A stretch of DNA of 64,000 nucleotides from an uncultured Planctomycetota bacterium (GTDB taxonomy: Bacteria; Planctomycetota; Planctomycetia; Isosphaerales; Isosphaeraceae). Positions 48,547 through 63,674 of this stretch are shown in pieces. The stretch is taken from NCBI GenBank assembly GCA_963737655.1, contig CAVTTN010000002.1, positions 1,920,001 to 1,984,000 of the forward strand, in the 5' to 3' direction. Position numbers and translations under genes: made by a program. The notes under the pieces were generated by a model. The model saw nothing but the letters and a program-made list of their open reading frames with translations. It was not told where the DNA came from and searched no databases. Within the stretch, counting starts at the first letter, position 1; each line of letters opens with the position of its first letter.

Positions 48547-48575
48547 AAACCCCCGGATGACCCCGGGGGTTTTTC
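48547..48575 (+). terminator. Intrinsic terminator after the RND operon
   Basis: AAACCCCCGG/CCGGGGGTTT stem plus T-run. Confidence 0.6.
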
Positions 48576-48770
48576 TTCGCGCCCGCCGCCCCGCGGCTTC
48601 CGGTGCCCAGCACGTGCCCCAGCCCCGCCAAGGTGGCGGAGATCCCACCGGCACCCGGGCGACCAGGCCGGACCGATCCGTCCTCCACGCCGGAAGATCG
48701 GACGCGCCCTCCCCCGTCCCGAGCCGGGGGGCGGGAGTGAGGGGGGCCGGCTCTTGGAAGCCGAGCCCCA

Positions 48771-49385
48771 CGACCGACCTTCGACCAGAAGCCGTCCGAA
48801 CCGACGGCGCGACCAAACCCATCCCAACCGCTCACGGCCCACCCCCGAACCACGAATCGAAGTCCCCGCCCGACGTCCACCGACGCCATCCCCTCGATCC
48901 AGACCATCGAGAGCCGCCCCCACCCCCGATCGCCCAATCTCGCCCCCACCCCATCACCCATCCCGAATGACCCCTCAAGCGCACTCCCCGAAGGATCCAC
49001 CAATCCGGACAAAATTCGGCGGCGAAGCTCCAAAATCCGATCGACGCAAACCGTTCGGACATCAAAATTTGCTCGCAAAAACCAAACAAATTCACAAATC
49101 AAGCAACATGGCTCGGCACGAGTGACTGTGCGCCCGAAAACCCTGGAAAAACCGCCCTCCGGCGCGTTTTTCGGGAAAACGTGGAGTCAAGTTCCGCGAA
49201 ATCGTCGATCGCGCACATCTGCCCATGACCAAACTCGAACAATCCAACCAATGAATGGAATCCAAATTAATAAATCTCGAAACATCGGCAACTTGCCGCT
49301 CGTCAGACCCCCGCAAACCCGACCCCACCCGCTTCTCTCGAGCGGATTTCCCGGAAGCCCCAGACTCCCCAGGATCGCAAGCCCC
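48771..49385. repeat. ~600-bp dispersed intergenic repeat, copy 2
   Basis: Similar to 30116-30708 in the same orientation. Confidence 0.8.
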
Positions 49386-49565
49386 GGGGACCGTCGAGTG
49401 AGTCCTCAAGGATCGAGACTCGGGTGGCATGCTCACGTCTTTGCAACCAAGGATTCGGCCGGCTTCGAATGGAAGGCATGCTCACCTCTTGGTAAGCATG
49501 CAACCCGGCCAAAGAAAATCCTTGGAAGGCGAACTCGCCGTCGGCAAAATCAACAACCGGCCCGA

Positions 49566-49617
49566 GATTATGCATCCGAAACGACGTGATAAATCACGTC
49601 GTTTCGGATGCATAATC
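49566..49617. repeat. Perfect 25-bp inverted repeat with 2-nt loop
   Basis: GATTATGCATCCGAAACGACGTGAT-aa-ATCACGTCGTTTCGGATGCATAATC. Confidence 0.95.
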
Positions 49618-49639
49618 CCGCAAATTCGGAGATTCTGCG

Positions 49640-49668
49640 TCACTTTCGATGTCTACTTCATGTTAGGC
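49640..49668 (+). other. Putative attI site (array start)
   Basis: First GTTAGGC (49662-49668) opens a cassette but is not preceded by an attC hairpin. Confidence 0.6.
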
Positions 49669-49993
49669 GGCTCAGGAGTCGAAGCCTTCGGTCGTGCTCG
49701 TCGTCGGCCTCGCCGGTCGCGCCTCGGCTCGACGACGCCATCGGTCGGGCCCCTGGAGTCGGCCTCGGCGGTGGTGCGCGTCGTCGCCCTCGCCGGCCGC
49801 GCCCCGAGGTCGGGCCCGTCGGCCGGCGCCCCCCTTGCCAACGCCGTCGGTCCGTGCCAGGATCGTCGGTGTCGGCGCGTGGGGCGTCGCCGGGGCGCCG
49901 CCTAACCCGGCGCTGCAGCGGACCCGGCCCGCGGTCGACGATCACTCTCCTCTCAATCTCGCCGGGCGCGGGCCGGTCCGCTGAGCTTTGTCG
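49663..49993 (+). repeat. ORF-less cassette, copy 1 (attC 49900-49999)
   Basis: Near-identical to 51537-51867 and 52326-52656. Confidence 0.85.
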
Positions 49994-50147
49994 TTAGGCG
50001 TCGCGCCCTCGACACGGTTGGTTTGGCTCGTCGTCGAAGTCGCTGGGAGTGCCCCTGCTGTCAAAGTCTGTGGGTTGAGCTCCGGCTTCGCCGTCGCGAT
50101 GTTCGGTCATCGTCTCCAAAGGTCATCGTCGTCGCGGTCGGCCGCCT

Positions 50148-50526
50148 CTTCGTGAACTCTTTGGCTGGGAACGGCCATCGACGCGCGACACTACCCCAAC
50201 CCCAGGCTTTGTGGCCGGGCAGCGGCGAGGTCCGGGTAGCAAACCGACGGATTCAAGAGCGGCGGACGAGGCGCGGGCCGAGAGGGGAGTCGGTTACGCT
50301 TGCAGTCTCTTCGACGGGAACATCCCCGCGAGTCGGCTCGCGGGGCGTCGCCAATGACCGGATCACGACCTCTCGGGCCAGGCTAACCTACGGGCAGGGA
50401 GCACCAAGGTGGAGACGGCCGGGAGGCCCGCGCCACACTCAGGCTACGCCGCGCCGGGTCGGCGGGCAAGTCGTCCCCGACCCCCGTTCACGCCCCGTCG
50501 GGAGCGGACGAAGGCCGCAGGATGGT
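50148..50526 (-). mobile_element. 379-bp non-autonomous IS110 derivative, copy 1 (type A), in attC 50144-50623
   Basis: GCCT|CTTCGTGAAC...GGATGGT|TAACCTC; homologous to the ends of the IS110 at 53084-54866. Confidence 0.85.
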
Positions 50527-50648
50527 TAACCTCGCGCTGCAGCGGACCCGTCCCGCGGTTGACGATTTTTCTGGTGTCCAGCCCGCTGGCCGCGGGTCGG
50601 TCCGCTGAGCTTGGTCGTTAGGCGTATTAGGTCGATCGGAGGCTCTGG

Positions 50649-51059
50649 ATGCGCAGTAGAGTCCGCTATGTCAGTGGTTTGCTATCGCTGTCCGTGCTGA
50701 TCTTTACCTCGTGCAGACCGGAGCGACCGGCGGGCAGCGAGGCGGACGCGTGGCCATCCGACCAAGAGATCCTCGCCTACCTCGATGGCAAGACGATTTT
50801 CGAGCCCACGCCTGCCTCATCGGAGAAGGGAGGTAGTGTACCCCCGAAATCCTTCTTGCTGAAGGCAGGCAACATTTCCTCCTTGGAAGTGAAGAAGTCG
50901 GGGGTTGCTGTCTCGGGCGAGCCTTGGACGACGCCGATCCATTTCATCCTCGACGAGGGGGGGCGTAAATATGCCGTTGATGCCAGCGTCGATCACCGGA
51001 AAGTCGATAATAAACGGGCCTTCTTCGGGCTCAAGGCCGAGCGCATCGCTGAGCAGTGA
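50649..51059 (+). CDS. Cassette gene: putative lipoprotein
   Basis: GGAGG RBS, signal peptide ending FTSC. Confidence 0.75.
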   Translation: MRSRVRYVSGLLSLSVLIFTSCRPERPAGSEADAWPSDQEILAYLDGKTIFEPTPASSEKGGSVPPKSFLLKAGNISSLEVKKSGVAVSGEPWTTPIHFILDEGGRKYAVDASVDHRKVDNKRAFFGLKAERIAEQ

Positions 51060-51064
51060 CGCCT

Positions 51065-51443
51065 CTTCGTGAACTCTTTGGCTGGGAACGGCCATCGACG
51101 CGCGACACTACCCCAACCCCAGGCTTTGTGGCCGGGCAGCGGCGAGGTCCGGGTAGCAAACCGACGGATTCAAGAGCGGCGGACGAGGCGCGGGCCGAGA
51201 GGGGAGTCGGTTACGCTTGCAGTCTCTTCGACGGGAACATCCCCGCGAGTCGGCTCGCGGGGCGTCGCCAATGACCGGATCACGACCTCTCGGGCCAGGC
51301 TAACCTACGGGCAGGGAGCACCAAGGTGGAGACGGCCGGGAGGCCCGCGCCACACTCAGGCTACGCCGCGCCGGGTCGGCGGGCAAGTCGTCCCCGACCC
51401 CCGTTCACGCCCCGTCGGGAGCGGACGAAGGCCGCAGGATGGT
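51065..51443 (-). mobile_element. 379-bp IS110 derivative, copy 2 (type A), in attC 51061-51542
   Basis: Same junctions and sequence as copy 1. Confidence 0.85.
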
Positions 51444-51536
51444 TAACCTCGCGCTGCAGCGGACCCCGGCCACGGGCCGCGCTCCCCTCTTCCCTCAAGC
51501 TCACTGGTCCGTGGCCGGGTCCGCTGAGCTTTGGCG

Positions 51537-51867
51537 TTAGGCGGCTCAGGAGTCGAAGCCTTCGGTCGTGCTCGTCGTCGGCCTCGCCGGTCGCGCCTCG
51601 GCTCGACGACGCCATCGGTCGGGCCCCTGGAGTCGGCCTCGGCGGTGGTGCGCGTCGTCGCCCTCGCCGGCCGCGCCCCCGAGGTCGGGCCCGTCGGCCG
51701 GCGCCCCCCTTGCCAACGCCGTCGGTCCGTGCCAGGATCGTCGGTGTCGGCGCGTGGGGCGTCGCCGGGCGCCGCCTAACCCGGCGCTGCAGCGGACCCG
51801 GCCCGCGGTCGACGATCACTCTCCTCTCAATCTCGCCGGGCGCGGGCCGGTCCGCTGAGCTTTGTCG
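51537..51867 (+). repeat. ORF-less cassette, copy 2 (attC 51774-51873)
   Basis: Repeat of 49663-49993. Confidence 0.85.
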
Positions 51868-51890
51868 TTAGGCGGCGGGAGACTCCCGCG

Positions 51891-52211
51891 ATGGATTGGC
51901 TCGAACCGTGGTGCGATGTCGCCGACCTCGGCCCCGACTTCGCGGCTACATTCGAGCGGGTTCTGGCACGCGAGGTCGCGCCGGGCCATCCCCTCCACAG
52001 CATCCCGGTCGCGGCAGTCGGCAAGCGCGACGGCACCGACGACGTGCTCTTTCGGCTGCTCGACGGCTCGGAGCGTGTCGCCGCCGTGCACCTGACCTGG
52101 ACTCGCTCCCCTCCCGAGCGGCCACCCTGGCCGGCAACCGAACTGTTCGCCGACTTCGAGGCGTTCGCCCGGCACCAGATGCGGCCCGACCATGAGGAAT
52201 TCGTGACGTAG
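51891..52211 (+). CDS. Cassette gene: hypothetical protein (attC 52232-52331)
   Basis: GGGAG RBS; fills the cassette; REVAPGHPL..DDVLF..AAVHLTW. Confidence 0.8.
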   Translation: MDWLEPWCDVADLGPDFAATFERVLAREVAPGHPLHSIPVAAVGKRDGTDDVLFRLLDGSERVAAVHLTWTRSPPERPPWPATELFADFEAFARHQMRPDHEEFVT

Positions 52212-52325
52212 CGGCGGGCACAAGAGACGCCGCCTAACCCGGCGCTGCAGCGGACCCGGCCGCCGCGGTCGGTTTCTGGTAACATCAAGGTCACTGGTCG
52301 GCGGCCGGTCCGCTGAGCTTGGTCG

Positions 52326-52656
52326 TTAGGCGGCTCAGGAGTCGAAGCCTTCGGTCGTGCTCGTCGTCGGCCTCGCCGGTCGCGCCTCGGCTCGACGACG
52401 CCATCGGTCGGGCCCCTGGAGTCGGCCTCGGCGGTGGTGCGCGTCGTCGCCCTCGCCGGCCGCGCCCCCGAGGTCGGGCCCGTCGGCCGGCGCCCCCTTG
52501 CCAACGCCGTCGGTCCGTGCCAGGATCGTCGGTGTCGGCGCGTGGGGCGTCGCCGGGGCGCCGCCTAACCCGGCGCTGCAGCGGACCCGGCCCGCGGTCG
52601 ACGATCACTCTCCTCTCAATCTCGCCGGGCGCGGGCCGGTCCGCTGAGCTTTGTCG
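52326..52656 (+). repeat. ORF-less cassette, copy 3 (attC 52563-52662)
   Basis: Repeat of 49663-49993. Confidence 0.85.
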
Positions 52657-52680
52657 TTAGGCGGCTCGGAGGCAACCGCA

Positions 52681-53091
52681 ATGGCCGAGCCTTTCGACCG
52701 CATCGCCGCGCTGGGCGAGTTGCCCCCGACGCTCGCGGCACGCCTGCGGTTCCTCCCCGAGACCGATCGCTCCGTCATCGGCACCATCCGATGCGGCGTT
52801 CTGTTCGTCATGGCCTTCTGGAGCGGCCCCGCCCGGCTGGCCTTCGCCGAACTCAAGCGGGTGCTCGCGGCCGAGGACATCGCCGGCCGCTTAGAGTTGG
52901 TCGTCGTCGATACCGATGGCTGCCCCGACCTCCAGGATCAGCCCGAGTTCACCGGCAAGCTGCACGGCGCCGGCGAGGCCGCTTGGGTTAATCAGGGCGT
53001 CATTGTCTGCACGTCGGGCCTGGGCTATCATCCCGAGTGCTTCGGGCCGAATACGCGGCGCCTCCTGGGCGAATGCGCCGCCTCCCCGTGA
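52681..53091 (+). CDS. Cassette gene: hypothetical, possibly thioredoxin-like fold; stop codon supplied by the IS end
   Basis: GGAGG RBS; AFWSGPA and VVVDTD; ends GCC TCC CCG TGA. Confidence 0.7.
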   Translation: MAEPFDRIAALGELPPTLAARLRFLPETDRSVIGTIRCGVLFVMAFWSGPARLAFAELKRVLAAEDIAGRLELVVVDTDGCPDLQDQPEFTGKLHGAGEAAWVNQGVIVCTSGLGYHPECFGPNTRRLLGECAASP

Positions 53092-53243
53092 ACTCTTCGC
53101 GCCGGCGGTTCGGCATCGGTTGATACTATGTGGGCATGATCATCGATCGGCCCGCATCCCCCCCGGCCCCCGCGACGACGGGGACGGCCCGATCCGGCTC
53201 GGCGGGGCTTGCGGTCGGGCGCCCCGCCTCCGACCCGTCGCCC

Positions 53244-54596
53244 TCACGACGGCGGCGACGGCGGCGACTTCGCCACCAGCTCGTAGCCCAGCGACCTCGC
53301 CTTGCGCCGCAGCGACCGCTCCTGCTTCGCGCGCACCTCGGCCTCGTACTCCGCCAGCGACCTCGACACGTACTCCTCGCCGTGCCTGAGCATCCGGTAC
53401 ACCAGCCGCGACAGCTTGTGCGCCGTCGCCGTGATCGCCCCCCGGCCGCCGATCCGGCCCTTGATCCGCCGGTAGAACTGGCCCGTCGCCGTCGCCGTCC
53501 GGCCCGCCGCCTGCGCCGCCATCCGCAGCGCCTGACCCACCCGGTTCTTGCCCTTGCGGGGCGTGCGACGCCGCTCGGTCTTGTTGCTCCGGTCGGTCCG
53601 CGGGCAGAGGCCCAGCCAGCTGGCGAAGTGCTTCTCGCTCGGGAACCGCCCCACGTCGCCGCCGAGCTCGGCCAGGATCACCGTCGCCGTCGTCGCGTCG
53701 ATCCCCTCGATGGCCGTCAGGTCCACGCCGATCGCCCGGGCCAGCTTGGCCGGGGCGTCGAACCGCACGTCGTTGGCCTTGCGGCCGCGCTTGCGGGGCC
53801 TCGCCGCGATCGGCCGGCCTTCGGAGCGGTCGGGCAGGCGGTCCAGCTCCTCGGCGATCCGGGCGTCGCACTCGTCGACCTGGCGGTGGAGGTAGTGGTA
53901 CAGGTCGGACGCCTGCCTCAGGGCGAACAGGTGCTCGGGCCGCCAGGTGCCCTCCAGGGCCCGGGCGATCTCCGCCTCGTCCCGGGCGCACCGCTCGTGC
54001 CGCAGCGCGGCCAGCTTCGTGGCGTCCCGCTCGCCGGCGAGGATCGCGGCGATGATCGCCGTGCCGGTGACGCCCGTGATGCTGCTGACGACCTCGGTCA
54101 GCTTCACATTCATCTGCTCCAAAGCCTTCTGCATGTGCTGGACGTGGTGCGAGGCGTACCGCACGAGCATCTGCCGCTGCCGCCAGTAGCCGCGCAGGGC
54201 CAGGACGGCCCCGGGCGGGCGGAAGGACGGGCGGAGCAGGCCGCACGAGTGGAGGCGCTGGAGCCACTGGCAGTCGAGCCGGTCGGTCTTGGGCCGGGCG
54301 CCGCAGTGGCTGGCCTGGCTCGGCTCGATGAGGAAGACCTCGAAGCCGCGCGATTCGAGCAGCTCGAACAGGGGGATCCAGTAGACGCCGGTGGACTCCA
54401 GGACCACCGAGGTGACGCCCTCGGCCCGGAACCAATCGGCCAGGGCGTGGAGGTCGGCCGAGCAGGCGCCGAAGGTGCGGACCCGTCCGGGCCCGACGCA
54501 GGCGACGTGGTTGTCGGAGTGGACGTCGACGGCGGCGGCGTGGGGGTGGACGACCGGCAGGGACGCGTCGGGATCGGGGGGCGTGCGGCGACTCAT
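53244..54596 (-). CDS. IS110-family DEDD transposase/recombinase
   Basis: AVDVH, LESTGVYW, KTDRLD (DEDD); FPSEKHFASWLGLCP..S; AITATAHKL. Confidence 0.95.
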   Translation of the reverse strand: MSRRTPPDPDASLPVVHPHAAAVDVHSDNHVACVGPGRVRTFGACSADLHALADWFRAEGVTSVVLESTGVYWIPLFELLESRGFEVFLIEPSQASHCGARPKTDRLDCQWLQRLHSCGLLRPSFRPPGAVLALRGYWRQRQMLVRYASHHVQHMQKALEQMNVKLTEVVSSITGVTGTAIIAAILAGERDATKLAALRHERCARDEAEIARALEGTWRPEHLFALRQASDLYHYLHRQVDECDARIAEELDRLPDRSEGRPIAARPRKRGRKANDVRFDAPAKLARAIGVDLTAIEGIDATTATVILAELGGDVGRFPSEKHFASWLGLCPRTDRSNKTERRRTPRKGKNRVGQALRMAAQAAGRTATATGQFYRRIKGRIGGRGAITATAHKLSRLVYRMLRHGEEYVSRSLAEYEAEVRAKQERSLRRKARSLGYELVAKSPPSPPS

Positions 54597-54629
54597 GGCG
54601 AGGGCTCCGGCGGGTGGGGGGCCAAGCCG

Positions 54630-54800
54630 TCGCGGGCCGAGAGGGGGTCCGGGGACGAGGTAGTCTCCCCGACGGGAACGTCGCGGGGCCGTGTTGACAC
54701 GGCGCCGCGGGTCACCAATGATGGGGCCACGGCCTCTCGGGCCAAGCTAACCTGCGGGCGGCGAGCACCAGGGAGATGACGGCCGGGAGGCCCGCGGCGG
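54630..54800 (-). ncRNA. Predicted bridge/seek-type guide RNA region upstream of the transposase
   Basis: Stem CCGAGAGG(54637)/CCTCTCGG(54733), inner hairpin GCCGTGT/ACACGGC, CTAACCT matching the target, CTCCCCG matching the element end; boundaries approximate. Confidence 0.65.
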
Positions 54801-54980
54801 CGACGCCGATCGTACCGCGCCCCGGTTCACGTCCGTCGGGGAGCGGTCGCAGGCCGCGCGGAGAGTTAACCTCGCGCTGCAGCGGACCCCGGCCACGGGC
54901 CGCGCTTTCTCTTCTCTCGATGCTCGGTGGTCCGTGGCCGTGTCCGCTGAGCTTTGTCGTTAGGTGGCTCGGAGCTGTCA

Positions 54981-55367
54981 ATGCTCGTTGACTCATGCAT
55001 TCCGGTCATACCCAGCGCCGATCTGGAGAGGAGCCTGCGCTTCTGGGTGGATGGGCTTGGTCTGTCCATGGATCGTGCCATGCGGCACGACGGTCGCCTC
55101 GTCGGTTGTATGGTGCATAACGAGCGGCTGTATTTTTGGCTCAATCAACGAGCCGGTCCCCCGACCGCGTCGGAGAATTACGAGGGCATACGCCTCTACT
55201 GGACGCCAGGCAACATCAAGGCCATTAGGGAGCGTCTCCTGCGACTCGGTTACGCGGCTTCCGAGATTGAGGATCGTGAATATGGACAGGCCGAGTTCGT
55301 CGTCAAGGATGATGACGGGTACTCCCATTGCTTCGGAGTCGCTACAACAAGAGCGGCTAGCCTATGA
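54981..55367 (+). CDS. Cassette gene: VOC/glyoxalase/bleomycin-resistance family (attC 55381-55480)
   Basis: DLERSLRFWVDGLG; YGQAEFVVKDDDGY. Confidence 0.85.
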   Translation: MLVDSCIPVIPSADLERSLRFWVDGLGLSMDRAMRHDGRLVGCMVHNERLYFWLNQRAGPPTASENYEGIRLYWTPGNIKAIRERLLRLGYAASEIEDREYGQAEFVVKDDDGYSHCFGVATTRAASL

Positions 55368-55497
55368 CCGCAAGGGTGCCGCCTAACCCGGCGCTGCAGC
55401 GGACCCCGCACCGCCGCGGCGCCTGTTGTCTTATCATTGCTCGCTCGGCGGTGCGGGTCCGCTGAGCTTTTGCGTTAGGCGGCGGAGAGATTCCCCG

Positions 55498-55845
55498 TTG
55501 GCGATCGACAACCCAAACGTCATCGACCTAATCGGCACCGACCGGACGACCGGCGAGGCCGTGCTCACCATCAGCGATCACCTCGAATGGGACGACCGCA
55601 ACGAGCATCTGCTGATCTTGCAAGAGAAAATCAACCGCTACATCGGTTTCATCGAGTCTGGCGAACTGCTGGAAAACTACGCGGGTGCGGCGGGCCGACT
55701 GATCCGCGTCGAGGTCGTTTGCAAGTATCCGCCGAGTGAAGTCGGCGAGCGATTCCTGAACCTCGCCAGCGAAACGTTCGAGAAGGCCGGTTGGTCCCTC
55801 ACTTGGCGTTGGTGGCCGAGCAAGCAGCTCGACGCCTCTTCGTGA
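55498..55845 (+). CDS. Cassette gene: DUF6572-like protein
   Basis: VIDLIG..LTISDHLEW..HLLILQEKINRY..FIESGE; TTG start after GGAGA. Confidence 0.7.
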   Translation: MAIDNPNVIDLIGTDRTTGEAVLTISDHLEWDDRNEHLLILQEKINRYIGFIESGELLENYAGAAGRLIRVEVVCKYPPSEVGERFLNLASETFEKAGWSLTWRWWPSKQLDASS

Positions 55846-56216
55846 ACTCTTTGGCTGGGAACGGCCATCGACGCGCGACACTACCCCAACCCCAGGCTTT
55901 GTGGCCGGGCAGCGGCGAGGTCCGGGTAGCAAACCGACGGATTCAAGAGCGGCGGACGAGGCGCGGGCCGAGAGGGGAGTCGGTTACGCTTGCAGTCTCT
56001 TCGACGGGAACATCCCCGCGAGTCGGCTCGCGGGGCGTCGCCGATGACCGGATCACGACCTCTCGGGCCAGGCTAACCTACGGGCATGGAGCACCGAGGT
56101 GGATCCGGCCACCGACCCGCGCCACGAACCGGGCTACGCCGCGCCGGGTCGGTGGGCAAGTCGGCCCCGGCCCCCGTTCACGCCCCCTCGGGAGCGGACG
56201 AAGGCCGCAGGATGGT
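55838..56216 (-). mobile_element. 379-bp IS110 derivative, copy 3 (A/B hybrid), in attC 55834-56313
   Basis: Left half type A, right half type B. Confidence 0.85.
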
Positions 56217-56329
56217 TAACCTCGCGCTGCGGCGGACCCGGCCCGCCGCGGTGCTTTCCTGTGCTATCATCATTTCCTCGGCGGTGCGGGTCCGCTGAGT
56301 TTTGTCGTCAGGGGGATTGATCGTTTACC

Positions 56330-56609
56330 GTGACCAGCAGCCGTAAGATGTCTCAGCCCGAGTTCGATGAGTGGGCCCGCTCGCGCCGACTTGGCCCTTG
56401 GCGTCACGTCCTCGTTCGGGGCGTGCTCTCGAAGGGCCTACCAATCGGCGCCGGCTGGTTGCTCGGTCATTGGCTCGCGGGTACGCTGTCCTGGAGTTTT
56501 GCGATCTGCCTGCTCCTCATCATGATCGTTGCCGGTGCCGTCGATGGGGTTAGTCGATGGCGAGGAGGGCTCCCAATCGGCTCGGCGCGAGCACGCGGCC
56601 TCTTCGTGA
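56330..56609 (+). CDS. Cassette gene: small membrane protein (3' end uncertain, possible frameshift ~56565)
   Basis: Two hydrophobic segments; as assembled the ORF reads through into the element. Confidence 0.55.
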
Positions 56610-56980
56610 ACTCTTTGGCTGGGAACGGCCATCGACGCGCGACACTACCCCAACCCCAGGCTTTGTGGCCGGGCAGCGGCGAGGTCCGGGTAGCAAACCG
56701 ACGGATTCAAGAGCGGCGGACGAGGCGCGGGCCGAGAGGGGAGTCGGTTACGCTTGCAGTCTCTTCGACGGGAACATCCCCGCGAGTCGGCTCGCGGGGC
56801 GTCGCCAATGACCGGATCACGACCTCTCGGGCCAGGCTAACCTACGGGCAGGGAGCACCAAGGTGGAGACGGCCGGGAGGCCCGCGCCACACTCAGGCTA
56901 CGCCGCGCCGGGTCGGCGGGCAAGTCGTCCCCGACCCCCGTTCACGCCCCGTCGGGAGCGGACGAAGGCCGCAGGATGGT
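56602..56980 (-). mobile_element. 379-bp IS110 derivative, copy 4 (type A), in attC 56598-57077
   Basis: Same junctions. Confidence 0.85.
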
Positions 56981-57105
56981 TAACCTCGCGCTGCAGCGGA
57001 CCCCGCACCGCCGCGGCGATTCTTGTGTTATCATCGCGTTCTCGGCGGTGCGGGTCCGCTGAGCTTTGGCGTTAGGCGGCTCGGCGAAGATGCCTCGGGA
57101 CACCC

Positions 57106-57501
57106 GTGACGTTCGACCCCGACCGAATCATGACCCTCTCGACCATGCAGTTCCGACGTTTCGGAATCGCGTGCTGCTATCGGTTGGGGTGCGACCGCAA
57201 AGACAAGCGTCTCGCGAAGGCGCTCAAGAGACTGGAGCAATCGCTGGGGCCGCCGGCCGACGAGAGCATGCGTCGTGACGCGCTCAACGCCGCCAACTCC
57301 GCTTGCCGAGACCTCTCCGCAAGCAGCGGCGTGATACAGGTCGTTGCCCGCACCCTTGTTTGTGCCTGCTGGGACGGTCCCAATGAGAATCTGATTGGGA
57401 ATTTCGAAGCGGCGCTTGAACAAGGAGAGCACTTGAGCAGGTCCGAGATCAAGGACATTGAAAGCGAGATCTTTCGGGCTATCCTGGGCGCCTCTTCGTG
57501 A
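57106..57501 (+). CDS. Cassette gene: hypothetical protein
   Basis: Fills the cassette; ends GCC TCT TCG TGA. Confidence 0.65.
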   Translation: MTFDPDRIMTLSTMQFRRFGIACCYRLGCDRKDKRLAKALKRLEQSLGPPADESMRRDALNAANSACRDLSASSGVIQVVARTLVCACWDGPNENLIGNFEAALEQGEHLSRSEIKDIESEIFRAILGASS

Positions 57502-57872
57502 ACTCTTTGGCTGGGAACGGCCATCGACGCGCGACACTACCCCAACCCCAGGCTTTGTGGCCGGGCAGCGACGAAGTCCGGGTAGCAAACCGACGGATTC
57601 AAGAGCGGCGGACGAGGCGCGGGCCGAGAGGGGAGTCGGTTACGCTTGCAGTCTCTTCGGCGGGAACATCCCCGCGAGTCGGCTCGCGGGGCGTCGCCAA
57701 TGACCGGATCACGACCTCTCGGGCCAGGCTAACCTACGGGCAGGGAGCACCAAGGTGGAGACGGCCGGGAGGCCCGCGCCACACTCAGGCTACGCCGCGC
57801 CGGGTCGGCGGGCAAGTCGTCCCCGACCCCCGTTCACGCCCCGTCGGGAGCGGACGAAGGCCGCAGGATGGT
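57494..57872 (-). mobile_element. 379-bp IS110 derivative, copy 5 (type A with a few SNPs); downstream attC truncated after 57884
   Basis: TAACCTCGCGCT is followed by non-attC sequence. Confidence 0.85.
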
Positions 57873-57909
57873 TAACCTCGCGCTCGACACCCAAGCCGGA
57901 GCATGTTGC

Positions 57910-58701
57910 ATGCGCTCATTAAGATTTGTCGTTATTACACTGTCGTTGACGGTTCGGTTCGCACCGCTCTATGCCCAGACGCCTGGAAAAAAACCGCCGA
58001 GCCGGGTTGTTGGCAGCGTGTATGGGAAGGCCGTCACCGCGGACCAGGTTGGCCTGACCTTGCCGATCGACAACACCAAGAAATTCGATGCACGAGATAC
58101 ACCCGCGTGGGAACAGATGGAGCGGGTCGCGGTGGCGTTCGGTAGCCCGGTCATGGAGCGGTTGGTCGCGCAGCGGAAGCTCGACGCCACGGCCGACGAG
58201 ATGGCCGCGTACAGGAGGGTCAACCTGATATTGAAAGGGCAGATGCTACGCGAGACGGAAGCTCGTTTGACGAAGGTCAAGGAGGAACTCGCGTCGCCCC
58301 ACCTGTCGGATGGAAGGAAAGCGGAACTGGAGAAAGAACGAGAGACGTTCGAACAGAGCCTCCCGGCGCAGCGCGAATCCGCCAGGCGTAATGACGACGA
58401 TGATGATGCTTTCGGTCGCGGGCTCATCCTCTCCTGGAAGGTCGAGCGGGAGCTGTACCGGACCTACGGCGGTCGCTTGATCTGGCAGCAATTCGGTATC
58501 GAGGCGCTCGACGCCCGCCGCCTGCTGTTCGAGGAAGCGGAGAAGAAGGGTGACCTGAAGTTCGACGATCCGGGGGTGCGGCGTCTATTTTATTACTACT
58601 CCAACATGCCTCACACTTTCGTCGGTGAGAAGGAACCAAGATTGCTGGAAGAGAAGCCTTGGTTCCTGAAGGATGGGGACGAACCGCTCCCCGAGAAGTG
58701 A
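57910..58701 (+). CDS. Cassette gene: secreted hypothetical protein (attC 58765-58865)
   Basis: Signal-like N-terminus; LYRTYGGRLIWQQFG. Confidence 0.75.
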   Translation: MRSLRFVVITLSLTVRFAPLYAQTPGKKPPSRVVGSVYGKAVTADQVGLTLPIDNTKKFDARDTPAWEQMERVAVAFGSPVMERLVAQRKLDATADEMAAYRRVNLILKGQMLRETEARLTKVKEELASPHLSDGRKAELEKERETFEQSLPAQRESARRNDDDDDAFGRGLILSWKVERELYRTYGGRLIWQQFGIEALDARRLLFEEAEKKGDLKFDDPGVRRLFYYYSNMPHTFVGEKEPRLLEEKPWFLKDGDEPLPEK

Positions 58702-58885
58702 GTGATGGGGCCGCGGCCGGAATCGAGGACATGGCGGATTTTGGCCCTAACCCGCTATGTCATGGCCTGACCTCGCGCTGCAGCGGACCCCGCACCGCCG
58801 CGGCGCCTTCTGGTAGAATCAACGCTGCTCGGGCGGTGCGGGTCCGCTGAGCTTCGGCGTGAGGCGGCGGAGGGAGGCCGATCCC

Positions 58886-59332
58886 ATGGAAGTCGTGAAA
58901 TCCAACCGCTACGGGCCGCTGGAGCCTGCTCGACTCGAAGCGTTCGAATCCCTGATCGGGTCGCGTTTCCCGGGAGACTTCCGTCAGTTCCTCCTCGACC
59001 ATAATGGCGGTCGACCCGCCTTCGATCACCTCCTCGATGCCGAGCGGGACGACTCGTTGGCGTGCCTGAACAGCACTTACGGGCTGCACGACGGACCGGA
59101 GTATTGCCGCATGGACTCGACCTTCGACACGCTCCGTGATGTGCTGCCGGCCGGCCTCATCTCCTTCGGCGACGATCCGGGAGGGAACCTCTTCTGCATC
59201 GGGGTCGCCGGGGAGTATCGAGGCCGGGTTTATTTGTGGGACCACGAGACGGCGGAACCCAAGCTGCTGGGAGAATCGTTCGAGGAGTTCCTGTCGCGTT
59301 TGGGCCCCGATCCCTGGGACGCCTCTTCGTGA
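58886..59332 (+). CDS. Cassette gene: SMI1/KNR4 (SUKH) family protein
   Basis: FPGDFRQFLLDHNGG; FGDDPGGNLFC; VYLWDHE; ESFEEFL. Confidence 0.9.
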   Translation: MEVVKSNRYGPLEPARLEAFESLIGSRFPGDFRQFLLDHNGGRPAFDHLLDAERDDSLACLNSTYGLHDGPEYCRMDSTFDTLRDVLPAGLISFGDDPGGNLFCIGVAGEYRGRVYLWDHETAEPKLLGESFEEFLSRLGPDPWDASS

Positions 59333-59703
59333 ACTCTTCTCCATCGAACGGCCGTCGATGCGCGACATTCCCCCGACCCCTGGCCGTGTGGCCGGGCAGC
59401 GACGAGGTCCGGGTGGCAATCCGACGGATTCGGGATCGGCGATCGAGGCGCGGGCCGAGAGGGGAATCGGTTACGTTCGGAGTCTCTTCGACGGGGACAT
59501 CCCCGCGAGTCGCCGCGCGGGGCGTCGCCGATGACCGGATCACGACCTCTCGGGCCAGGCTAACCTACGGGCATGGAGCACCGAGGTGGATCCGGCCACC
59601 GACCCGCGCCACGAACCGGGCTACGCCGCGCCGAGTCGGTGGGCAAGTCGGCCCCGGCCCCCGTTCACGCCCCCTCGGGAGCGGACGAAGGCCGCAGGAT
59701 GGT
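59325..59703 (-). mobile_element. 379-bp IS110 derivative, copy 6 (divergent type B), in attC 59321-59801
   Basis: Same length and ends, many internal substitutions; putative guides unchanged. Confidence 0.85.
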
Positions 59704-59883
59704 TAACCTCGCGCTGCGGCGGACCCCGCACTGCCGCTACACTTTCTGCTACGATCAACGTCGCTCGGGCGGTGCGAGGCCGCTGAGCTTGGGCGTTAGG
59801 CGGCGTCGCGGTCGGCCAGAATGTGACGAACTCGCGGAGCGTGGAACGCAGGCCGCGCGGAAACCGATCGTGAGGTTAGCGAC

Positions 59884-60399
59884 ATGAAGCTGAATGTTTC
59901 CAGCCTCGCCTTCGCCCGACACCGAGACGAAGTGCCCGCGCGGTGGCTCCTCGATATCCTCTGGCTCGTCCTCGCCTCCGGCGAGGACACGAATGGCGAG
60001 TATTCCGTCATCGAGCAGTTCATGCCCGTCGGGTCCGGCCCGCCGCCGCACGGGCATCCGTTCGAGGACGAGATGTTCTACGTCCTGGCCGGGGAGATGA
60101 CCGTCATCGTCGGCGGGCAGGAGATCGTCTTGAAGCCCGGCAGCCTGGGCCACGTCCCGCGCAACGTCGTCCACGAATTCAAGGTGACCGGCACCGACGT
60201 GTGCCATTGCCTGAACTACTACACCCCCGCCGGGTTCGAGCAGTCGGTCCTCGGGTGTTCGCGGCCCGCGGAACGGCGCGAGTTGCCCCCGCCCGGGCTG
60301 GACCCGCTTGACTCTCCGCAGGTGATGCAATTCTTCAACAACTACTGGGTCGCCGGGGCAACGCTCCCCTGGGCCCAGCAGAAGTGGTCGCCCGGTTGA
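59884..60399 (+). CDS. Cassette gene: cupin-domain protein (degenerate attC 60492-60592)
   Basis: GPPPHGHPFEDEMFYVLAGE; VPRNVVHEF. Confidence 0.9.
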   Translation: MKLNVSSLAFARHRDEVPARWLLDILWLVLASGEDTNGEYSVIEQFMPVGSGPPPHGHPFEDEMFYVLAGEMTVIVGGQEIVLKPGSLGHVPRNVVHEFKVTGTDVCHCLNYYTPAGFEQSVLGCSRPAERRELPPPGLDPLDSPQVMQFFNNYWVAGATLPWAQQKWSPG

Positions 60400-60607
60400 G
60401 CGCCAAGCGGCACGCGCCCATGCCGGTTGGGCCGGAAAACCGCATCCCGGAGTGCCGGGGCCTCGACGCCTTCCCGCTGGCGGAGGGCGGCGCCGAAACT
60501 GGCGCGGGAGCGGACCCGGCCGCCGCGATTGGTTTCTGGTAATATTCTAAGTCGCAGGCCGGCGGCCGGTCCGCGGAGCTTCGGCGTTAGGCGGCGAGGC
60601 GCGACCG

Positions 60608-61057
60608 ATGGCGAAGGGACTGCCGGGGACGGTCGCCGTCAACCACGACGATTACCACGCCGAATACGTCGGGCGAACCAAGGACGGCGCGCAATTCTTC
60701 CTCACGACGCCCTTCGTGCCGGGGGTCGGAGACCAGCCGGGCCGGGAGTTCATCGCGCTCTACCTGTTCGACAAGGCTGGCCAACTCCAGGCGGCCACGA
60801 TCGACGACCTGGGGCCTCGCGAGACGATGGATCTGGGGGCGAGGATGGCCCGCCGAGACGAGTTGCTCGCCTCGCTGGGTGAGGTCAGCTATCAGCGAAT
60901 CAAAGTCGCCCCGTTTCGGATCGAGAGGTTCGGGGTTGAGTTCGGGTTCATCCCGCAGCCGCCCGAGGAGCCGGGCGAGGACTGGAGCGTCATCGTGATG
61001 CCGGGAGACGTCATGTGCTTCTGGCCGCCTTGGTCCAGCGGCGACTACGATACGTAA
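60608..61057 (+). CDS. Cassette gene: hypothetical protein (attC 61067-61167)
   Basis: GAGG RBS; fills the cassette. Confidence 0.8.
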   Translation: MAKGLPGTVAVNHDDYHAEYVGRTKDGAQFFLTTPFVPGVGDQPGREFIALYLFDKAGQLQAATIDDLGPRETMDLGARMARRDELLASLGEVSYQRIKVAPFRIERFGVEFGFIPQPPEEPGEDWSVIVMPGDVMCFWPPWSSGDYDT

Positions 61058-61185
61058 TGCCGCGACGCCTAACCTGGCGCGGCGTCGGACCCCGCACCGC
61101 CGCGGCGCGTTCTGCTACGATCGAAGGCCGCTCGGGCGGGTGGGTCTGCTGAGCTTTGGCGTTTGGCGGCTCGGAGGGTCAGGCG

Positions 61186-61521
61186 TTGGAGGAGGCGTGT
61201 CCCCTCGAAGAAAAGCTGTCCAATGTCGCAGCCGACCTGCTGTCCGAGCGGCGGTTCGAGGCATTCGTCCGCCGCCTGTTCGCGGCCCCTCCCGGCGTGT
61301 GGCAGGGCGTGGCGGCCTGCTGCTCAAGCATGCCGGTGCTGCCGGGCCTCGCCGCCGAGGTCTTCGCCGGCCACGCCGAGTGCTTCGTGGTCACGCATCT
61401 GCCATGGCCCGGCCTTCCCTCCCGCGATCCCTACGCTCTGGTGCTGTTCCTGCACGCCGATATCATGTGGTCCACCACCGCGTTGTACAATCGCGCCGTG
61501 TTCGGGGCCGACTCTTCGTGA
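61186..61521 (+). CDS. Cassette gene: hypothetical protein
   Basis: TTG after GGAGG; ends GAC TCT TCG TGA. Confidence 0.55.
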   Translation: MEEACPLEEKLSNVAADLLSERRFEAFVRRLFAAPPGVWQGVAACCSSMPVLPGLAAEVFAGHAECFVVTHLPWPGLPSRDPYALVLFLHADIMWSTTALYNRAVFGADSS

Positions 61522-61892
61522 ACTCTTTGGCTGGGAACGGCCATCGACGCGCGACACTACCCCAACCCCAGGCTTTGTGGCCGGGCAGCGGCGAGGTCCG
61601 GGTAGCAAACCGACGGATTCAAGAGCGGCGGACGAGGCGCGGGCCGAGAGGGGAGTCGGTTACGCTTGCAGTCTCTTCGACGGGAACATCCCCGCGAGTC
61701 GGCTCGCGGGGCGTCGCCAATGACCGGATCACGACCTCTCGGGCCAGGCTAACCTACGGGCAGGGAGCACCAAGGTGGAGACGGCCGGGAGGCCCGCGCC
61801 ACACTCAGGCTACGCCGCGCCGGGTCGGCGGGCAAGTCGTCCCCGACCCCCGTTCACGCCCCGTCGGGAGCGGACGAAGGCCGCAGGATGGT
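61514..61892 (-). mobile_element. 379-bp IS110 derivative, copy 7 (type A), in attC 61510-61988
   Basis: GACT|CTTCG...GGATGGT|TAACCTC. Confidence 0.85.
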
Positions 61893-62004
61893 TAACCTCG
61901 CGCTGCAGCCGACCCCACCCGCCGCGGCGGTTTTCGGTATAGTCGATGTCGCTCGGGCGGGTGGGTCTGCTGAGCTTTGGCGTTAGGCCCAAGGAGGGCG
62001 GGTC

Positions 62005-62775
62005 GTGGCTCGGAAGCGGAAGAGCACCCCCGGTCCGTACTTGTTGTACCTTGAGGTCCTCCGCGGTCGCATCCCGGACGTCAGCCGCTTCCCGTACAAC
62101 CTGCCCGCCTTCCGCGCCCTGACGACGCTGCCGTTCCATCCCAAGGTGACGTTCCTCGTCGGGGAGAACGGGTCCGGCAAATCGACACTCCTGGAGGCCG
62201 TCGCCGTCGAGTGCGGGTTGAATCCCGAAGGCGGCAGCCGGAACTTCCACTTCGCCACGCGGGCCTCGCACTCGTCGCTCGACGAATGCGTTCGGCTCGC
62301 GAAGGCCCCGGCTTCGCCCGGCGACTGGTACTTCTTGCGGGCCGAGAGCTTTTACAACGTGGCTTCGGAGATCGAACGTCTCGACGAGGGACCGGGAGGC
62401 GGGCCGATCATCGGTGCCTACGGCGGCAAGTCGCTCCACGAGCAGTCGCACGGGGAGTCTTTTTTCGCCCTGTTCCAGAACCGGTTCCGGGACCATGGGC
62501 TGTACCTGATGGATGAGCCGGAGGCCGCGTTGTCGCCGAAGCGGCAACTCCAATTCCTCGCATTGCTCCACGACTACGTGTGCCGGGGCGGGCAGTTCGT
62601 CATCGCCACGCACTCACCGATCATCATGGCGTACCCCGAATCGCGCATCTATTTGCTGGACGGCGAGGGTATCCGGGAGATTGCTTACACGGACACCGAG
62701 CACTACCAGATCACTCGGGGATTCCTGAGCAACCCGCAGCGGTCGCTGTCGGTGCTGCTCGGTGAGGAGCGATAA
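62005..62775 (+). CDS. Cassette gene: stand-alone ABC/AAA-type ATPase (attC ~62780-62883)
   Basis: GENGSGKST, SHGESF, LMDEPEAALSP, IATHSP. Confidence 0.92.
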   Translation: MARKRKSTPGPYLLYLEVLRGRIPDVSRFPYNLPAFRALTTLPFHPKVTFLVGENGSGKSTLLEAVAVECGLNPEGGSRNFHFATRASHSSLDECVRLAKAPASPGDWYFLRAESFYNVASEIERLDEGPGGGPIIGAYGGKSLHEQSHGESFFALFQNRFRDHGLYLMDEPEAALSPKRQLQFLALLHDYVCRGGQFVIATHSPIIMAYPESRIYLLDGEGIREIAYTDTEHYQITRGFLSNPQRSLSVLLGEER

Positions 62776-62899
62776 ATAGGCCCAGCCTCGCGCCGCTGCA
62801 GCGGACCCGGCCCACCTCCTCGCTTTCTGGTAACATGAAGGTCACTCTCGGCGGCGCGGGTCCGCTGAGCTTGGGCGTTAGGCGTGTCGCGAAAGCACA

Positions 62900-63469
62900 A
62901 TGAGCGAACCGAGACTTACATTCGCAACGCAATCCGAGTGGGAAGACTGGCTTGAAGCCAATGGCAGCACTTCGCCCGGCGTGTGGCTTCGCTTGGCGAA
63001 GAAGTCTGCCGAGCAACCAACGGTCACTTATGCACAAGCGCGAGAAAGCGCTCTTTGCCACGGGTGGATCGATGGCCAAAAGCAATCGGAAAACCAGCAC
63101 TATTGGCTTCAGCGCTTTACACCGAGAACTGCCAAGAGCATCTGGTCGAAGATCAACAAGGAAAAGGCGGAGGCACTCATCACATCGCAACGGATGCGGG
63201 CAGCAGGTCTGGTCGCGATAGAACGGGCAAAATCGGACGGAAGATGGGATGCGGCATACTCATCGGCGAGCACTTCGACCGTCCCTGACGACCTGCAAGA
63301 AGCCCTTGATGCAAACCCAAGAGCCAAAACGTTTTTTGCGACGCTCAATAGCCAAAATAGGTATGCCATCTTGTTTCGAATTCAAAAAGTCAAGAAGGCC
63401 GAGACACGGGCGAAGAAGATCGCTCAATTCATTGAAATGCTCAATGATGGCGAAAAGCTCTATCCATAA
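62900..63469 (+). CDS. Cassette gene: YdeI/OmpD-associated family protein (attC 63554-63658)
   Basis: ALCHGWIDG, RFTPR..SIWSKIN, VPDDL, KKAETRAKKI. Confidence 0.9.
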   Translation: MSEPRLTFATQSEWEDWLEANGSTSPGVWLRLAKKSAEQPTVTYAQARESALCHGWIDGQKQSENQHYWLQRFTPRTAKSIWSKINKEKAEALITSQRMRAAGLVAIERAKSDGRWDAAYSSASTSTVPDDLQEALDANPRAKTFFATLNSQNRYAILFRIQKVKKAETRAKKIAQFIEMLNDGEKLYP

Positions 63470-63674
63470 CGAAGCCTGTCTAGTTGATGCAGAAAAGTTT
63501 ATCAAAATGATACATGTTAAATATTGATACTTGTCATAGACTGCGAGCGTCCCGCCTGACCTCGCGCCGCAGCGGACCCGGCCCGCCGCGGCGCCCGCTG
63601 GGGATGCGTAGGACAGACTCGGCGGGCCGGTCAGGTCCTCTGAGCTTGATCGTTAGGCGGCAGGAGACCCCACG

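What the first reader, a model, noticed from the sequence alone, without database searches (positions are those of the whole stretch)
50148..61892. Family of 379-bp transposase-less IS110 mini-elements that keep their guide-RNA region and colonise integron attC sites
Seen: seven copies of exactly 379 bp (50148, 51065, 55838, 56602, 57494, 59325, 61514), each at the same base of an attC R'' box (GCCT^AACCTC; GACT in copy 7). This is the same site used by the full IS110 at 53084-54866. The copies share the IS terminus (CGTGAACTCTT) and align with the ~270-bp non-coding region upstream of the transposase (CGCGGGCCGAGAGGGG..AGTCTC..CGACGGGAAC..CCAATGA..CCTCTCGGGCCA.GCTAACCT.CGGGC..GAGCACCA..GACGGCCGGGAGGCCCGCG), but have no transposase. 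Established: IS110/IS1111 recombinases are guided by an RNA from the non-coding end (bridge RNA of IS621, seekRNA), and some IS1111 members target attC. Inference: these are non-autonomous RNA-only elements that carry their own guide and borrow an IS110 recombinase in trans. They are clearly diverged from the neighbouring IS, so they are not simple recent deletions of it. I do not know of a description of such an attC-resident mini-element family.
Basis: partly seen in the sequence, partly recalled or inferred. Interest (0 to 1): 0.92.

Follow-up and report, generated by a model that had tools for sequence, protein, structure and literature searches.

The report
Guide-RNA-carrying miniature IS110 elements in integrons
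A 379-base jumping element that has lost its enzyme gene but kept its own guide RNA sits 28 times in this genome, always at the same base of integron recombination sites, and appears to borrow the enzyme of a related full-length element.

Summary
Seven 379-bp copies lie at the stated coordinates. Each splits an attC R'' box at GCCT^AACCT, the same base as the full 1783-bp IS110-type element at 53084-54866. The whole genome holds 28 copies, all in attC sites, against 6 full IS copies.

The copies have no transposase. They keep a ~180-nt RNA homologous to the region upstream of the IS transposase. A covariance model of this RNA finds it upstream of related transposases in 69 places, with strong base-pair covariation. 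Across that family, one loop segment matches the left target flank and another matches the element's own right end. This is bridge-RNA logic.

In the mini-elements the target guide (AGGUUAG) fits the attC. The donor guide (CGAAGAG) fits the mini's own end, not the resident IS's end (CGGGGAG). Stems show compensatory changes within the mini lineage. One cassette occurs both empty and filled.

Related minis occur in a sister species, in one MAG contig and in a soil metagenome contig.

Verdict: a non-autonomous, bridge-RNA-carrying IS110 derivative, a new variant of a known kind. Transcription, circle formation and trans-mobilisation remain untested.

The parts
50148..50526 (-). mini-element copy 1 (379 bp; reference copy). 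Element orientation is the minus strand: left end ACCATCC.., right end ..GAGTTCACGAAG
51065..51443 (-). mini-element copy 2 (100% identical to copy 1). Its 150-nt left flank recurs 100% identical at G000:C2:6787752-6787901, followed there by an uninterrupted attC (empty site)
55838..56216 (-). mini-element copy 3 (95.3% to copy 1)
56602..56980 (-). mini-element copy 4 (100%)
57494..57872 (-). mini-element copy 5 (99.2%). Its attC remainder is cut after TAACCTCGCGCT
59325..59703 (-). mini-element copy 6 (87.4%, the most diverged copy in the window)
61514..61892 (-). mini-element copy 7 (100%; left flank GACT instead of GCCT)
50264..50443 (-). bridge-RNA-like core of copy 1 (covariance model R1, 182.8 bits). 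The other copies have it at 51181-51360, 55954-56132, 56718-56897, 57610-57789, 59441-59619 and 61630-61809
   Evidence: genome coordinates minus 1920000
50383..50389 (-). candidate left target guide AGGUUAG (3' side of loop 1). It is identical to the attC strand ..GAGGTTA|G across the insertion point. All seven copies and the IS (54747-54753) have the same 7-mer
50307..50313 (-). candidate left donor guide CGAAGAG (3' side of loop 2). It is identical to the mini's own right end plus flank, CGAAG|AG. The IS has CGGGGAG at 54665-54671, matching its own end CGGGG|AG
53084..54866 (-). full IS110-type element (1783 bp) in the same attC position
53244..54596 (-). 450-aa DEDD transposase (PF01548 + PF02371; IS621 transposase 8wt6 at E 1.5e-10)
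54623..54807 (-). bridge-RNA-like core of the IS, upstream of its transposase gene (R1, 154.9 bits)
50527..50623 (+). remainder of the attC split by copy 1 (TAACCTCGCGCTGCAGCGGACC ... GTTAGGC). The left 4 nt of its R'' box (GCCT) are at 50144-50147
49904..49999 (+). example of an unoccupied attC (GCCTAACCCGG variant, C where all occupied sites have T)

Best explanation
The 379-bp repeats are non-autonomous derivatives of an IS110-type insertion sequence. They have lost the recombinase gene. They kept both element ends and a complete bridge-type guide RNA on the minus strand, the same sense as the IS transposase. One loop of this RNA carries AGGUUAG, which pairs with the attC strand GCCT^AACCT. 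This explains why every copy sits at that base, and only in attC sites that have T at that position. The second loop carries CGAAGAG, which matches the mini's own right end and not the end of the resident IS. The mini therefore specifies its own donor recognition and needs only the protein from elsewhere. The most likely supplier is the 450-aa recombinase of the co-resident IS (6 copies). Shown here: the anatomy, the homology, the conserved RNA fold, the fit of guide to flank and of guide to end across the family and within the mini lineage, many independent insertion sites, and one empty/filled site pair. Inferred: transcription of the RNA, binding by the IS recombinase, excision as a circle with junction ..GGATGGT-T-CTTCGTG.. 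(+ strand), and re-insertion.
For: (1) Copy number and sites. There are 28 copies and 6 IS copies, all at the same attC base. Among the 28 there are at least 26 different 25-nt left flanks.
(2) Precise insertion. A flank 100% identical over 150 nt occurs with an intact attC at C2:6787752-6787901 and with the element in window copy 2. The filled site equals the empty site plus 380 nt.
(3) The RNA is a family feature. Model R1 hits 69 places in 81 loci of relatives, and the hits examined lie upstream of the transposase gene.
(4) Structure covariation. 87.8% of cells are paired against 68.9% in shuffles (0 of 500 reach it). 38 of 48 pairs change on both sides. Slid controls give 41-48% paired. 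Frequent G-U pairs fit the transposase-sense strand only.
(5) Target guide. The 3' side of loop 1 matches the left flank plus core A over 6 nt or more in 38 of 60 elements, against 2.3 expected. The match lies at a constant distance, and copies of one IS diverge exactly there.
(6) Donor guide. The 3' side of loop 2 matches the right end over 6 nt or more in 53 of 56 elements, against 8.5 expected.
(7) Private donor guide. The mini has end CACGAAG with guide CGAAGAG. The IS has end CACGGGG with guide CGGGGAG. The 71%-identical mini in L061 has end CATGAAG with guide UGAAGAG.
(8) Selection on the fold inside the mini lineage. Pair 105-126 is CG in 8 rows and GC in 3. Pair 14-179 is CG, TA or TG.
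(9) Target rule. By a loose pattern, 35 of 56 AACCT rows are occupied and 0 of 43 rows with other hexamers.
(10) Published basis. A bridge RNA works in trans (PMC11208160, passages). An LE-cargo-RE donor is mobilised in trans by ISPpu10 (preprint 10.64898/2026.03.19.712850, passages). Excision relies on donor-arm recognition (preprint 10.64898/2026.08.31.748434, abstract).
Against: No expression data were found. No run listed for the stretch is on record as RNA, so nothing is known either way.

No circle or mobilisation evidence exists.

Only two of the four canonical guide contacts were found. The segments for the right target and the right donor were not resolved.

The guide segments lie on the 3' sides of the loops. 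In IS621 the segments that pair with the bottom strand lie on the 5' sides (PMC11208160, passage). The RNA is therefore not a simple copy of the IS621 design.

The mini's RNA is only about 75% identical to that of the resident IS, so binding by that protein is assumed.

No full-length element with the mini's right end exists in this genome.

The sister genome G003 has minis but only a 72-residue piece of the cognate transposase. That assembly is 77% complete.

The boundaries used were set by the guide matches themselves, so its LT and LD diagonals are circular.

Many attC rows are paralogous copies, and some are not attC sites.
Confidence: 0.8

Rival explanations
1. The minis are mobile and RNA-guided, but their protein partner is not the resident 450-aa recombinase. 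It would be an autonomous parent with the same right end, now absent from this genome, so the copies here are stranded.
For: The RNA cores are only about 75% identical between mini and IS. No full-length element carries the mini's end GAGTTCACGAAG. A second, distant IS110-type gene (38% identity) lies at C2:4847288-4848490 near a diverged mini.
Against: Fifteen copies are identical and 24 are at 99.2% or more, so the spread is recent and happened while this IS is present in 6 intact copies. Minis and this IS clade also co-occur in the L061 contig, where the transposase is 84% identical and the two elements lie in tandem. The protein-facing conserved RNA motifs are shared.
Confidence: 0.12
2. 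The minis are dead internal-deletion relics. Their copy number would come from cassette duplication, integron shuffling or homologous recombination, and the RNA would no longer function.
For: Two pairs of copies share identical flanks, so some copies arose by segmental duplication. The genome also holds two internal-deletion derivatives of the resident IS.
Against: There are at least 26 different flanks for 28 copies. One cassette exists both empty and filled. Compensatory pair changes and co-variation of guide with end occur inside the mini lineage down to 71% identity. The mini architecture recurs in another species, in a MAG contig and in a soil contig.
Confidence: 0.05
3. The element is kept for a host or integron function: disabling attC sites to freeze cassettes, or supplying an RNA antisense to cassette transcripts. 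Mobility would be secondary.
For: Every copy splits the R'' box from the rest of its attC. The RNA strand is opposite to the cassette ORFs.
Against: Nothing tested here points to a host benefit. The guide-to-end logic is that of a selfish element. The effect on attC is a consequence of the target choice.
Confidence: 0.03

Closest known systems
IS110-group insertion sequences with bridge RNA / seekRNA (IS621, ISEc21)
   Same: The partner IS has a DEDD recombinase related to IS621 (E 1.5e-10 to 8wt6). The structured RNA is encoded upstream of the gene and has two internal loops. One loop reads the target and the other reads the element's own end. There are no terminal inverted repeats, and the overlap at the junction is 1 nt.
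   Different: The mini has no recombinase gene. The guide segments found lie on the 3' sides of the loops, not the 5' sides. The shared core is a single A, followed by G in the target and A in the donor in this clade.
MITEPpu9 / ssr9 module of ISPpu9 (Pseudomonas putida; PMC12288879, abstract and passages seen)
   Same: It is a transposase-less module bounded by copies of the ends of an IS110-family element. It is thought to move when the transposase is supplied in trans.
   Different: Its cargo is the sRNA Ssr9, which is not needed for transposition and is not the bridge RNA. It has 3 isolated copies, and it targets REP sequences. Here the cargo is the guide RNA itself, with a donor guide private to the mini, there are 28 copies, and the targets are attC sites.
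IS1111-attC group (ISPst6, ISKpn4; Tetu & Holmes 2008 and Post & Hall 2009 seen only as references; PMC11187229 passages)
   Same: These are DEDD-transposase elements that insert at one end of integron attC sites, guided by a seekRNA.
   Different: Those elements are full length and carry the non-coding region downstream of the gene. Here it is upstream (IS110 type), and most copies lack the gene. The exact insertion base of the IS1111-attC group could not be compared, because that paper is not held.
Protein-less IS200/IS605 derivatives that encode a TnpB guide RNA
   Same: They are non-autonomous elements that retain the guide-RNA gene of an RNA-guided transposon family.
   Different: The enzyme family and the chemistry differ. 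There the RNA guides a nuclease for element retention, not the recombination itself.

Membership tests
IS110 family, IS110 group (bridge-RNA elements) | DEDD/RuvC-like domain plus Tnp domain recombinase | tested here: not met
   The mini has no such gene: it is 379 bp and its only spanning ORF has no Pfam hit. The neighbouring IS meets the feature. The mini is a derivative, not an autonomous member.
IS110 family, IS110 group (bridge-RNA elements) | long non-coding region with a structured RNA upstream of the recombinase gene, in the same sense | tested here: met
   In the IS the RNA lies at 54623-54807, upstream of the start codon at 54596. R1 hits lie upstream of the gene in relatives. The mini carries the homologous RNA.
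IS110 family, IS110 group (bridge-RNA elements) | two-loop fold supported by covariation | tested here: met
   87.8% paired against 68.9% in shuffles, and 38 of 48 pairs change on both sides. The outer four pairs of helix 3 are mostly unpaired, which marks an internal loop.
IS110 family, IS110 group (bridge-RNA elements) | a loop segment that matches the left target plus core | tested here: met
   38 of 60 elements match over 6 nt or more, against 2.3 expected. In the mini, AGGTTAG matches the attC.
IS110 family, IS110 group (bridge-RNA elements) | a loop segment that matches the element's own right end (left donor) plus core | tested here: met
   53 of 56 elements match over 6 nt or more, against 8.5 expected. 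The mini, the IS and the L061 mini each fit their own end.
IS110 family, IS110 group (bridge-RNA elements) | segments that pair with the right target and the right donor (RTG, RDG) | tested here: inconclusive
   One search gives only weak signals: the 5' side of loop 1 against right-flank positions 1-3, about 0.5 observed against 0.25 expected.
IS110 family, IS110 group (bridge-RNA elements) | circular intermediate and a junction promoter that drives the RNA | not testable with these tools
   No reads of this organism were available. The runs found are soil metagenome contigs.
Classical MITE | terminal inverted repeats and a target-site duplication of fixed length | tested here: not met
   The ends ACCATCC.. 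and ..TTCACGAAG are not inverted repeats, and only 1 nt is shared at the junctions. The element is MITE-like in lifestyle only.
IS1111-attC group | non-coding guide region downstream of the transposase gene | tested here: not met
   The guide region lies upstream of the gene. The criterion is taken from PMC11187229.
Integron gene cassette | a unit bounded by attC recombination crossover points | tested here: not met
   The element lies inside the R'' box. An identical cassette exists without it. The attC family itself adjoins an integron integrase (TIGR02249, 474.6 bits against a cut-off of 265).

The most novel reading that the evidence does not exclude
Because IS110 elements recognise their own ends through RNA, a deletion derivative can survive only if it keeps a guide fitted to its own ends. 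These minis would then be RNA-defined hyperparasites of a bridge recombinase. They would use the host IS's protein but carry a private donor guide that makes them orthogonal to the IS's own RNA. They have outgrown the IS 28 to 6 and have persisted as a lineage down to 71% identity. As a side effect they split attC sites, and so may immobilise cassettes across all attC arrays of the genome.
Probability: 0.5. Interest if true: 0.8.

Novelty: new variant of a known kind. Interest (0 to 1): 0.72.

Why it matters
This would be a natural case of a bridge-recombinase system split into a protein donor and an RNA-only passenger. It shows what a minimal self-specifying donor looks like: 379 bp holding both ends and the guide.

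It makes a prediction that can be tested. Donor recognition through RNA forces non-autonomous IS110 derivatives to keep, and co-evolve, their own donor guide.

It adds an IS110-type lineage, with the guide region upstream of the gene, to the elements known to target attC sites. Before this, the searched literature described only the IS1111-attC group.

It also bears on integrons. In a genome with one integrase-linked array and several integrase-less arrays, 36 attC sites are split in the R'' box. This should affect cassette excision.

Tried and rejected
**Rfam.** A scan of 48000-64000 at E up to 1 gave only three chance-level hits (miRNA and snoRNA models, E 0.27-0.77) and no bridge-RNA family.

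**Metagenome pattern scan.** The pattern was the mini's right end, RAAGAGTTCAYGAAGAG. It matched 119 stretches and 80 loci were fetched.

**Sequencing runs.** No RNA holder is listed.

**Soil contigs.** Four soil runs of four studies hold only short contigs 85-95% alike to parts of the stretch, and none spans it.

**Shifted boundaries.** I considered that the element extends through TAACCT, with a CCT core and a target GCCTCGCGCT. I rejected this because occupied attC sites have the same length as empty ones (107-110 against 108 nt) and because of the empty paralogue.

**Handshake guide.** I considered GUAACC in loop 2 of the mini as a handshake guide for the attC. I rejected this because a relative with a different target guide (L135) has the same motif.

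**Right donor guide.** A hand comparison of variants found none that co-varies with the left-end starts ACCATCC and ACTCTCC.

**The 125-aa ORF across the mini.** It has no Pfam hit. Indels between lineage members break the frame.

**Other RNA-only copies.** I looked for them in relatives G054 and G064. Every R1 hit there has a transposase gene beside it.

**Earlier scan notes.** The notes on this genome held nothing.

**Paper not held.** PMC2447020 (Tetu & Holmes 2008) is not in the library.


Full report
**Observation**

The seven repeats are real. The repeat finder returns a seven-member family. The alignment with flanks shows sharp boundaries. Each copy is exactly 379 bp, starting at 50148, 51065, 55838, 56602, 57494, 59325 and 61514. 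Four of the seven are identical to each other. The others are 99.2%, 95.3% and 87.4% identical to them.

Every copy is flanked by ..GCCT on the left (GACT in copy 7) and TAACCTCGCGCT on the right. The 1783-bp element at 53084-54866 has the same flanks. That element encodes a 450-aa protein with the two IS110 transposase domains. The protein is distantly related to the IS621 transposase (8wt6, E 1.5e-10).

**Genome-wide picture**

The window is part of a 7.6-Mb genome with 68.7% G+C. The genome holds:
- 28 full-length mini copies: 15 identical, 24 at 99.2% or more, and three diverged at 95%, 88% and 87%;
- 6 full IS copies and 2 internal-deletion derivatives of the IS.

All 28 minis and all 6 ISs sit at the same base of an attC-like site. 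The 28 minis have at least 26 different left flanks.

The attC family is genuine. The same repeats form an array next to an integron integrase gene (TIGR02249, 474.6 bits against a cut-off of 265) at C2:6777135-6778073. That array also carries IS and mini copies. The window's array has no integrase gene close by.

**Insertion, not part of the cassette**

The 150 nt to the left of window copy 2 recur 100% identical at C2:6787752-6787901. There they are followed directly by AACCTCGCGCTGCAG, an intact attC. The filled site equals the empty site plus 380 nt, that is, the 379-bp element and one ambiguous T. A paralogous cassette (88% identical flank) carries the full IS at the same base.

I considered shifted boundaries, with the element including TAACCT. 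I rejected them because occupied attC sites have the same length as empty ones and because of this empty site.

**What the mini retains**

In element orientation (minus strand) the mini aligns with the IS in three regions:
- its first ~60 nt;
- a ~165-nt core at 75% identity, which in the IS lies just upstream of the transposase start;
- its last ~14 nt (GAGTTCAC..).

Nothing else aligns. No full-length element in the genome has the mini's right end. The mini is therefore not a recent deletion of the resident IS.

**The core is a conserved structured RNA**

An alignment of four minis and four IS left ends from three genomes folds into:
- an outer stem;
- a first arm with an internal loop and a hairpin;
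- a second arm with a stem, a large internal loop and a hairpin.

A covariance model built from it (R1) hit 69 places in 81 loci that encode relatives of the transposase at 41-84% identity. The hits examined lie upstream of the gene.

On that alignment:
- 87.8% of cells form standard pairs, against 68.9% in column shuffles (0 of 500 reach it);
- 38 of 48 pairs change on both sides;
- sliding the partners drops pairing to 41-48%;
- the outer four pairs of helix 3 are mostly unpaired, as expected for an internal loop;
- frequent G-U pairs fit only the transposase-sense strand.

The alignment was fitted to the model, which favours the structure. The slid controls argue that the signal is real.

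**Guide logic**

Between conserved blocks, the 3' side of loop 1 is hypervariable across the family. Its sequence, read up to a conserved A, recurs in the DNA 55-130 nt upstream of the RNA. It matches over 6 nt or more in 38 of 60 distinct elements, against 2.3 expected when guides are shuffled among loci. Copies of one IS diverge from each other exactly at the end of that match. So the match marks the left boundary, and the segment equals the left target flank plus core.

The 3' side of loop 2 likewise equals the last bases of the element. It matches over 6 nt or more in 53 of 56 elements, against 8.5 expected. That control is weakened because many relatives share similar ends.

This is the left-target-guide and left-donor-guide logic described for IS621 (PMC11208160, passages). 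There is one difference. [quoted passage not shown] Here they lie on the 3' side.

I could not locate the right-target and right-donor guides. The strong diagonals of that call are circular, because the boundaries had been set by the guide matches.

**The mini has its own guides**

All seven window copies carry AGGTTAG in loop 1 and CGAAGAG in loop 2.

AGGTTAG equals the attC strand ..GAGGTTA|G across the insertion point. This fits the target rule. By a loose attC pattern, 35 of 56 rows with AACCT are occupied, and 0 of 43 rows with any other hexamer. On a hand-curated subset, 36 of 56 against 0 of 23, Fisher's test gives p = 2e-8. Many rows are paralogues and some are not attC sites, so the test overstates.

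CGAAGAG equals the mini's own right end plus flank (CGAAG|AG). The IS has CGGGGAG and the end CGGGG|AG. A second segment, on the 5' side of loop 2, is complementary to the same end and changes with it: UCGUGA in the mini and CCGUG in the IS.

The resident IS's RNA would mismatch the mini's end at two positions. A preprint reports that IS621 excision relies on donor-arm recognition (abstract). From these two points I infer that the mini must keep its own RNA to be mobile.

**An old, maintained lineage**

- A sister species (G003) has at least four copies at 83-86% identity, in attC sites at the same base. Its assembly is 77% complete and shows only a 72-residue piece of the cognate transposase.
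- A 2.3-kb MAG contig (L061) carries an IS of this clade (84% protein identity), followed in tandem by a 392-bp mini that is 71% identical over its whole length. There the right end is CATGAAG and the donor guide is UGAAGAG, a matched change. The contig's taxonomic label, a different phylum, rests on binning of a short contig and should not be trusted.
- A 444-nt soil-metagenome contig (run X3, depth 55) holds the right end and the RNA core 83 nt apart. That is the mini architecture.
- Within the lineage, stems keep pairing through double changes. Pair 105-126 is CG in 8 rows and GC in 3. Pair 14-179 is CG, TA or TG. Paired columns vary less than unpaired ones, 21 of 96 against 36 of 93.

**Mechanism proposed**

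1. The minus strand of a mini is transcribed. This is not shown.
2. The RNA is bound by the recombinase of the co-resident IS. This is inferred from the shared scaffold.
3. Loop 2 recognises the mini's ends and the element leaves as a circle. This is inferred.
4. Loop 1 directs insertion at GCCT^AACCT of attC sites. This is supported by the site census.

Published work shows that bridge RNAs act in trans. A preprint shows that an LE-cargo-RE donor is mobilised in trans.

Tandem arrays of elements occur in L071 and L118 (IS plus IS) and in L061 (IS plus mini). They fit re-use of the retained left half-site.

**Comparison and novelty**

Non-autonomous IS110 derivatives are known. MITEPpu9 carries the sRNA Ssr9, which is not the guide. 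Earlier notes of this scan report several minis that keep only the two ends (these are unchecked AI notes). attC targeting is known for the IS1111-attC group, whose guide region lies downstream of the gene.

Four literature searches and passages of six papers found no description of an IS110 derivative that carries its own bridge RNA, nor of one resident in attC sites. A 2026 preprint that mined bridge RNAs discarded loci without a flanking recombinase. Supplements of preprints were not available and might bear on this.

I rate the finding a new variant of a known kind.

**Limits**

Everything is in silico. No transcript, circle or mobilisation has been observed, and the identity of the protein partner is an inference.

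Noticed in passing
window 57873-58779: To the right of copy 5 the attC stops after TAACCTCGCGCT. An 882-bp stretch follows that is single-copy in the genome and has lower G+C (59.5%). It holds a 277-aa ORF (57868-58701, no Pfam hit). After it, ACCTCGCGCT recurs and the attC continues. This looks like an insertion flanked by a 10-bp direct repeat.
   Followed up: partly
G000:C2:1680652-1681646 and C2:6791946-6792592 (outside the window): Two internal-deletion derivatives of the resident IS. One keeps the left end with the RNA, 143 codons and 67 nt of the right end. The other keeps 389 nt of the right part and 125 nt of the left end. They show how transposase-less forms can arise.
   Followed up: partly
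G000:C2:4847288-4848490 (outside the window): A second IS110-type transposase gene (38% identity, 480-aa frame) lies inside another attC array, near the 88% mini copy. Upstream of it is a stretch resembling loop 1 of the RNA with a different guide (..GCCCGCGTGTTAGTCTGGCCC..).
   Followed up: no
window 49644-50005, 51518-51879, 52307-52668: A small cassette of about 330 bp with attC variant GCCTAACCCGG is repeated three times in the window. About ten copies occur in the genome with identical flanks, and none is occupied by a mini or an IS.
   Followed up: partly
window 58859-59329: This cassette ORF of 157 aa belongs to the SMI1/KNR4 (SUKH-1) family (PF09346, E 3.4e-21). Mini copy 6 sits in its attC.
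   Followed up: no
mini minus-strand positions 35-41 and the last 12 nt (e.g. window 50486-50492 and 50148-50159): CGTGAAC near the left end is the reverse complement of GTTCACG at the right end. The same asymmetric inverted repeat is seen in the IS and in relatives such as L071. Sub-terminal repeats are said to be typical of IS1111, not of IS110.
   Followed up: no
L071:792-3759, L118, L061:19-2213: Elements of this clade occur head-to-tail: IS plus IS in L071 and L118, and IS plus mini in L061. The second element starts right after the first one's right end or a short flank.
   Followed up: partly
G000:C2:1679758 and window 57494: Two mini copies share a 100% identical 150-nt left flank but have different right flanks (AACCTGG.. 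against AACCTCG..). This suggests recombination between mini copies that reshuffles cassettes.
   Followed up: no
L042 (G002:C19), left junction: One IS copy of the sister species lies outside any attC. Its left flank is ..AAGTAGATCGAGGTTA|, which shares only CGAGGTTA with attC sites. This fits sequence-guided rather than structure-guided targeting.
   Followed up: no
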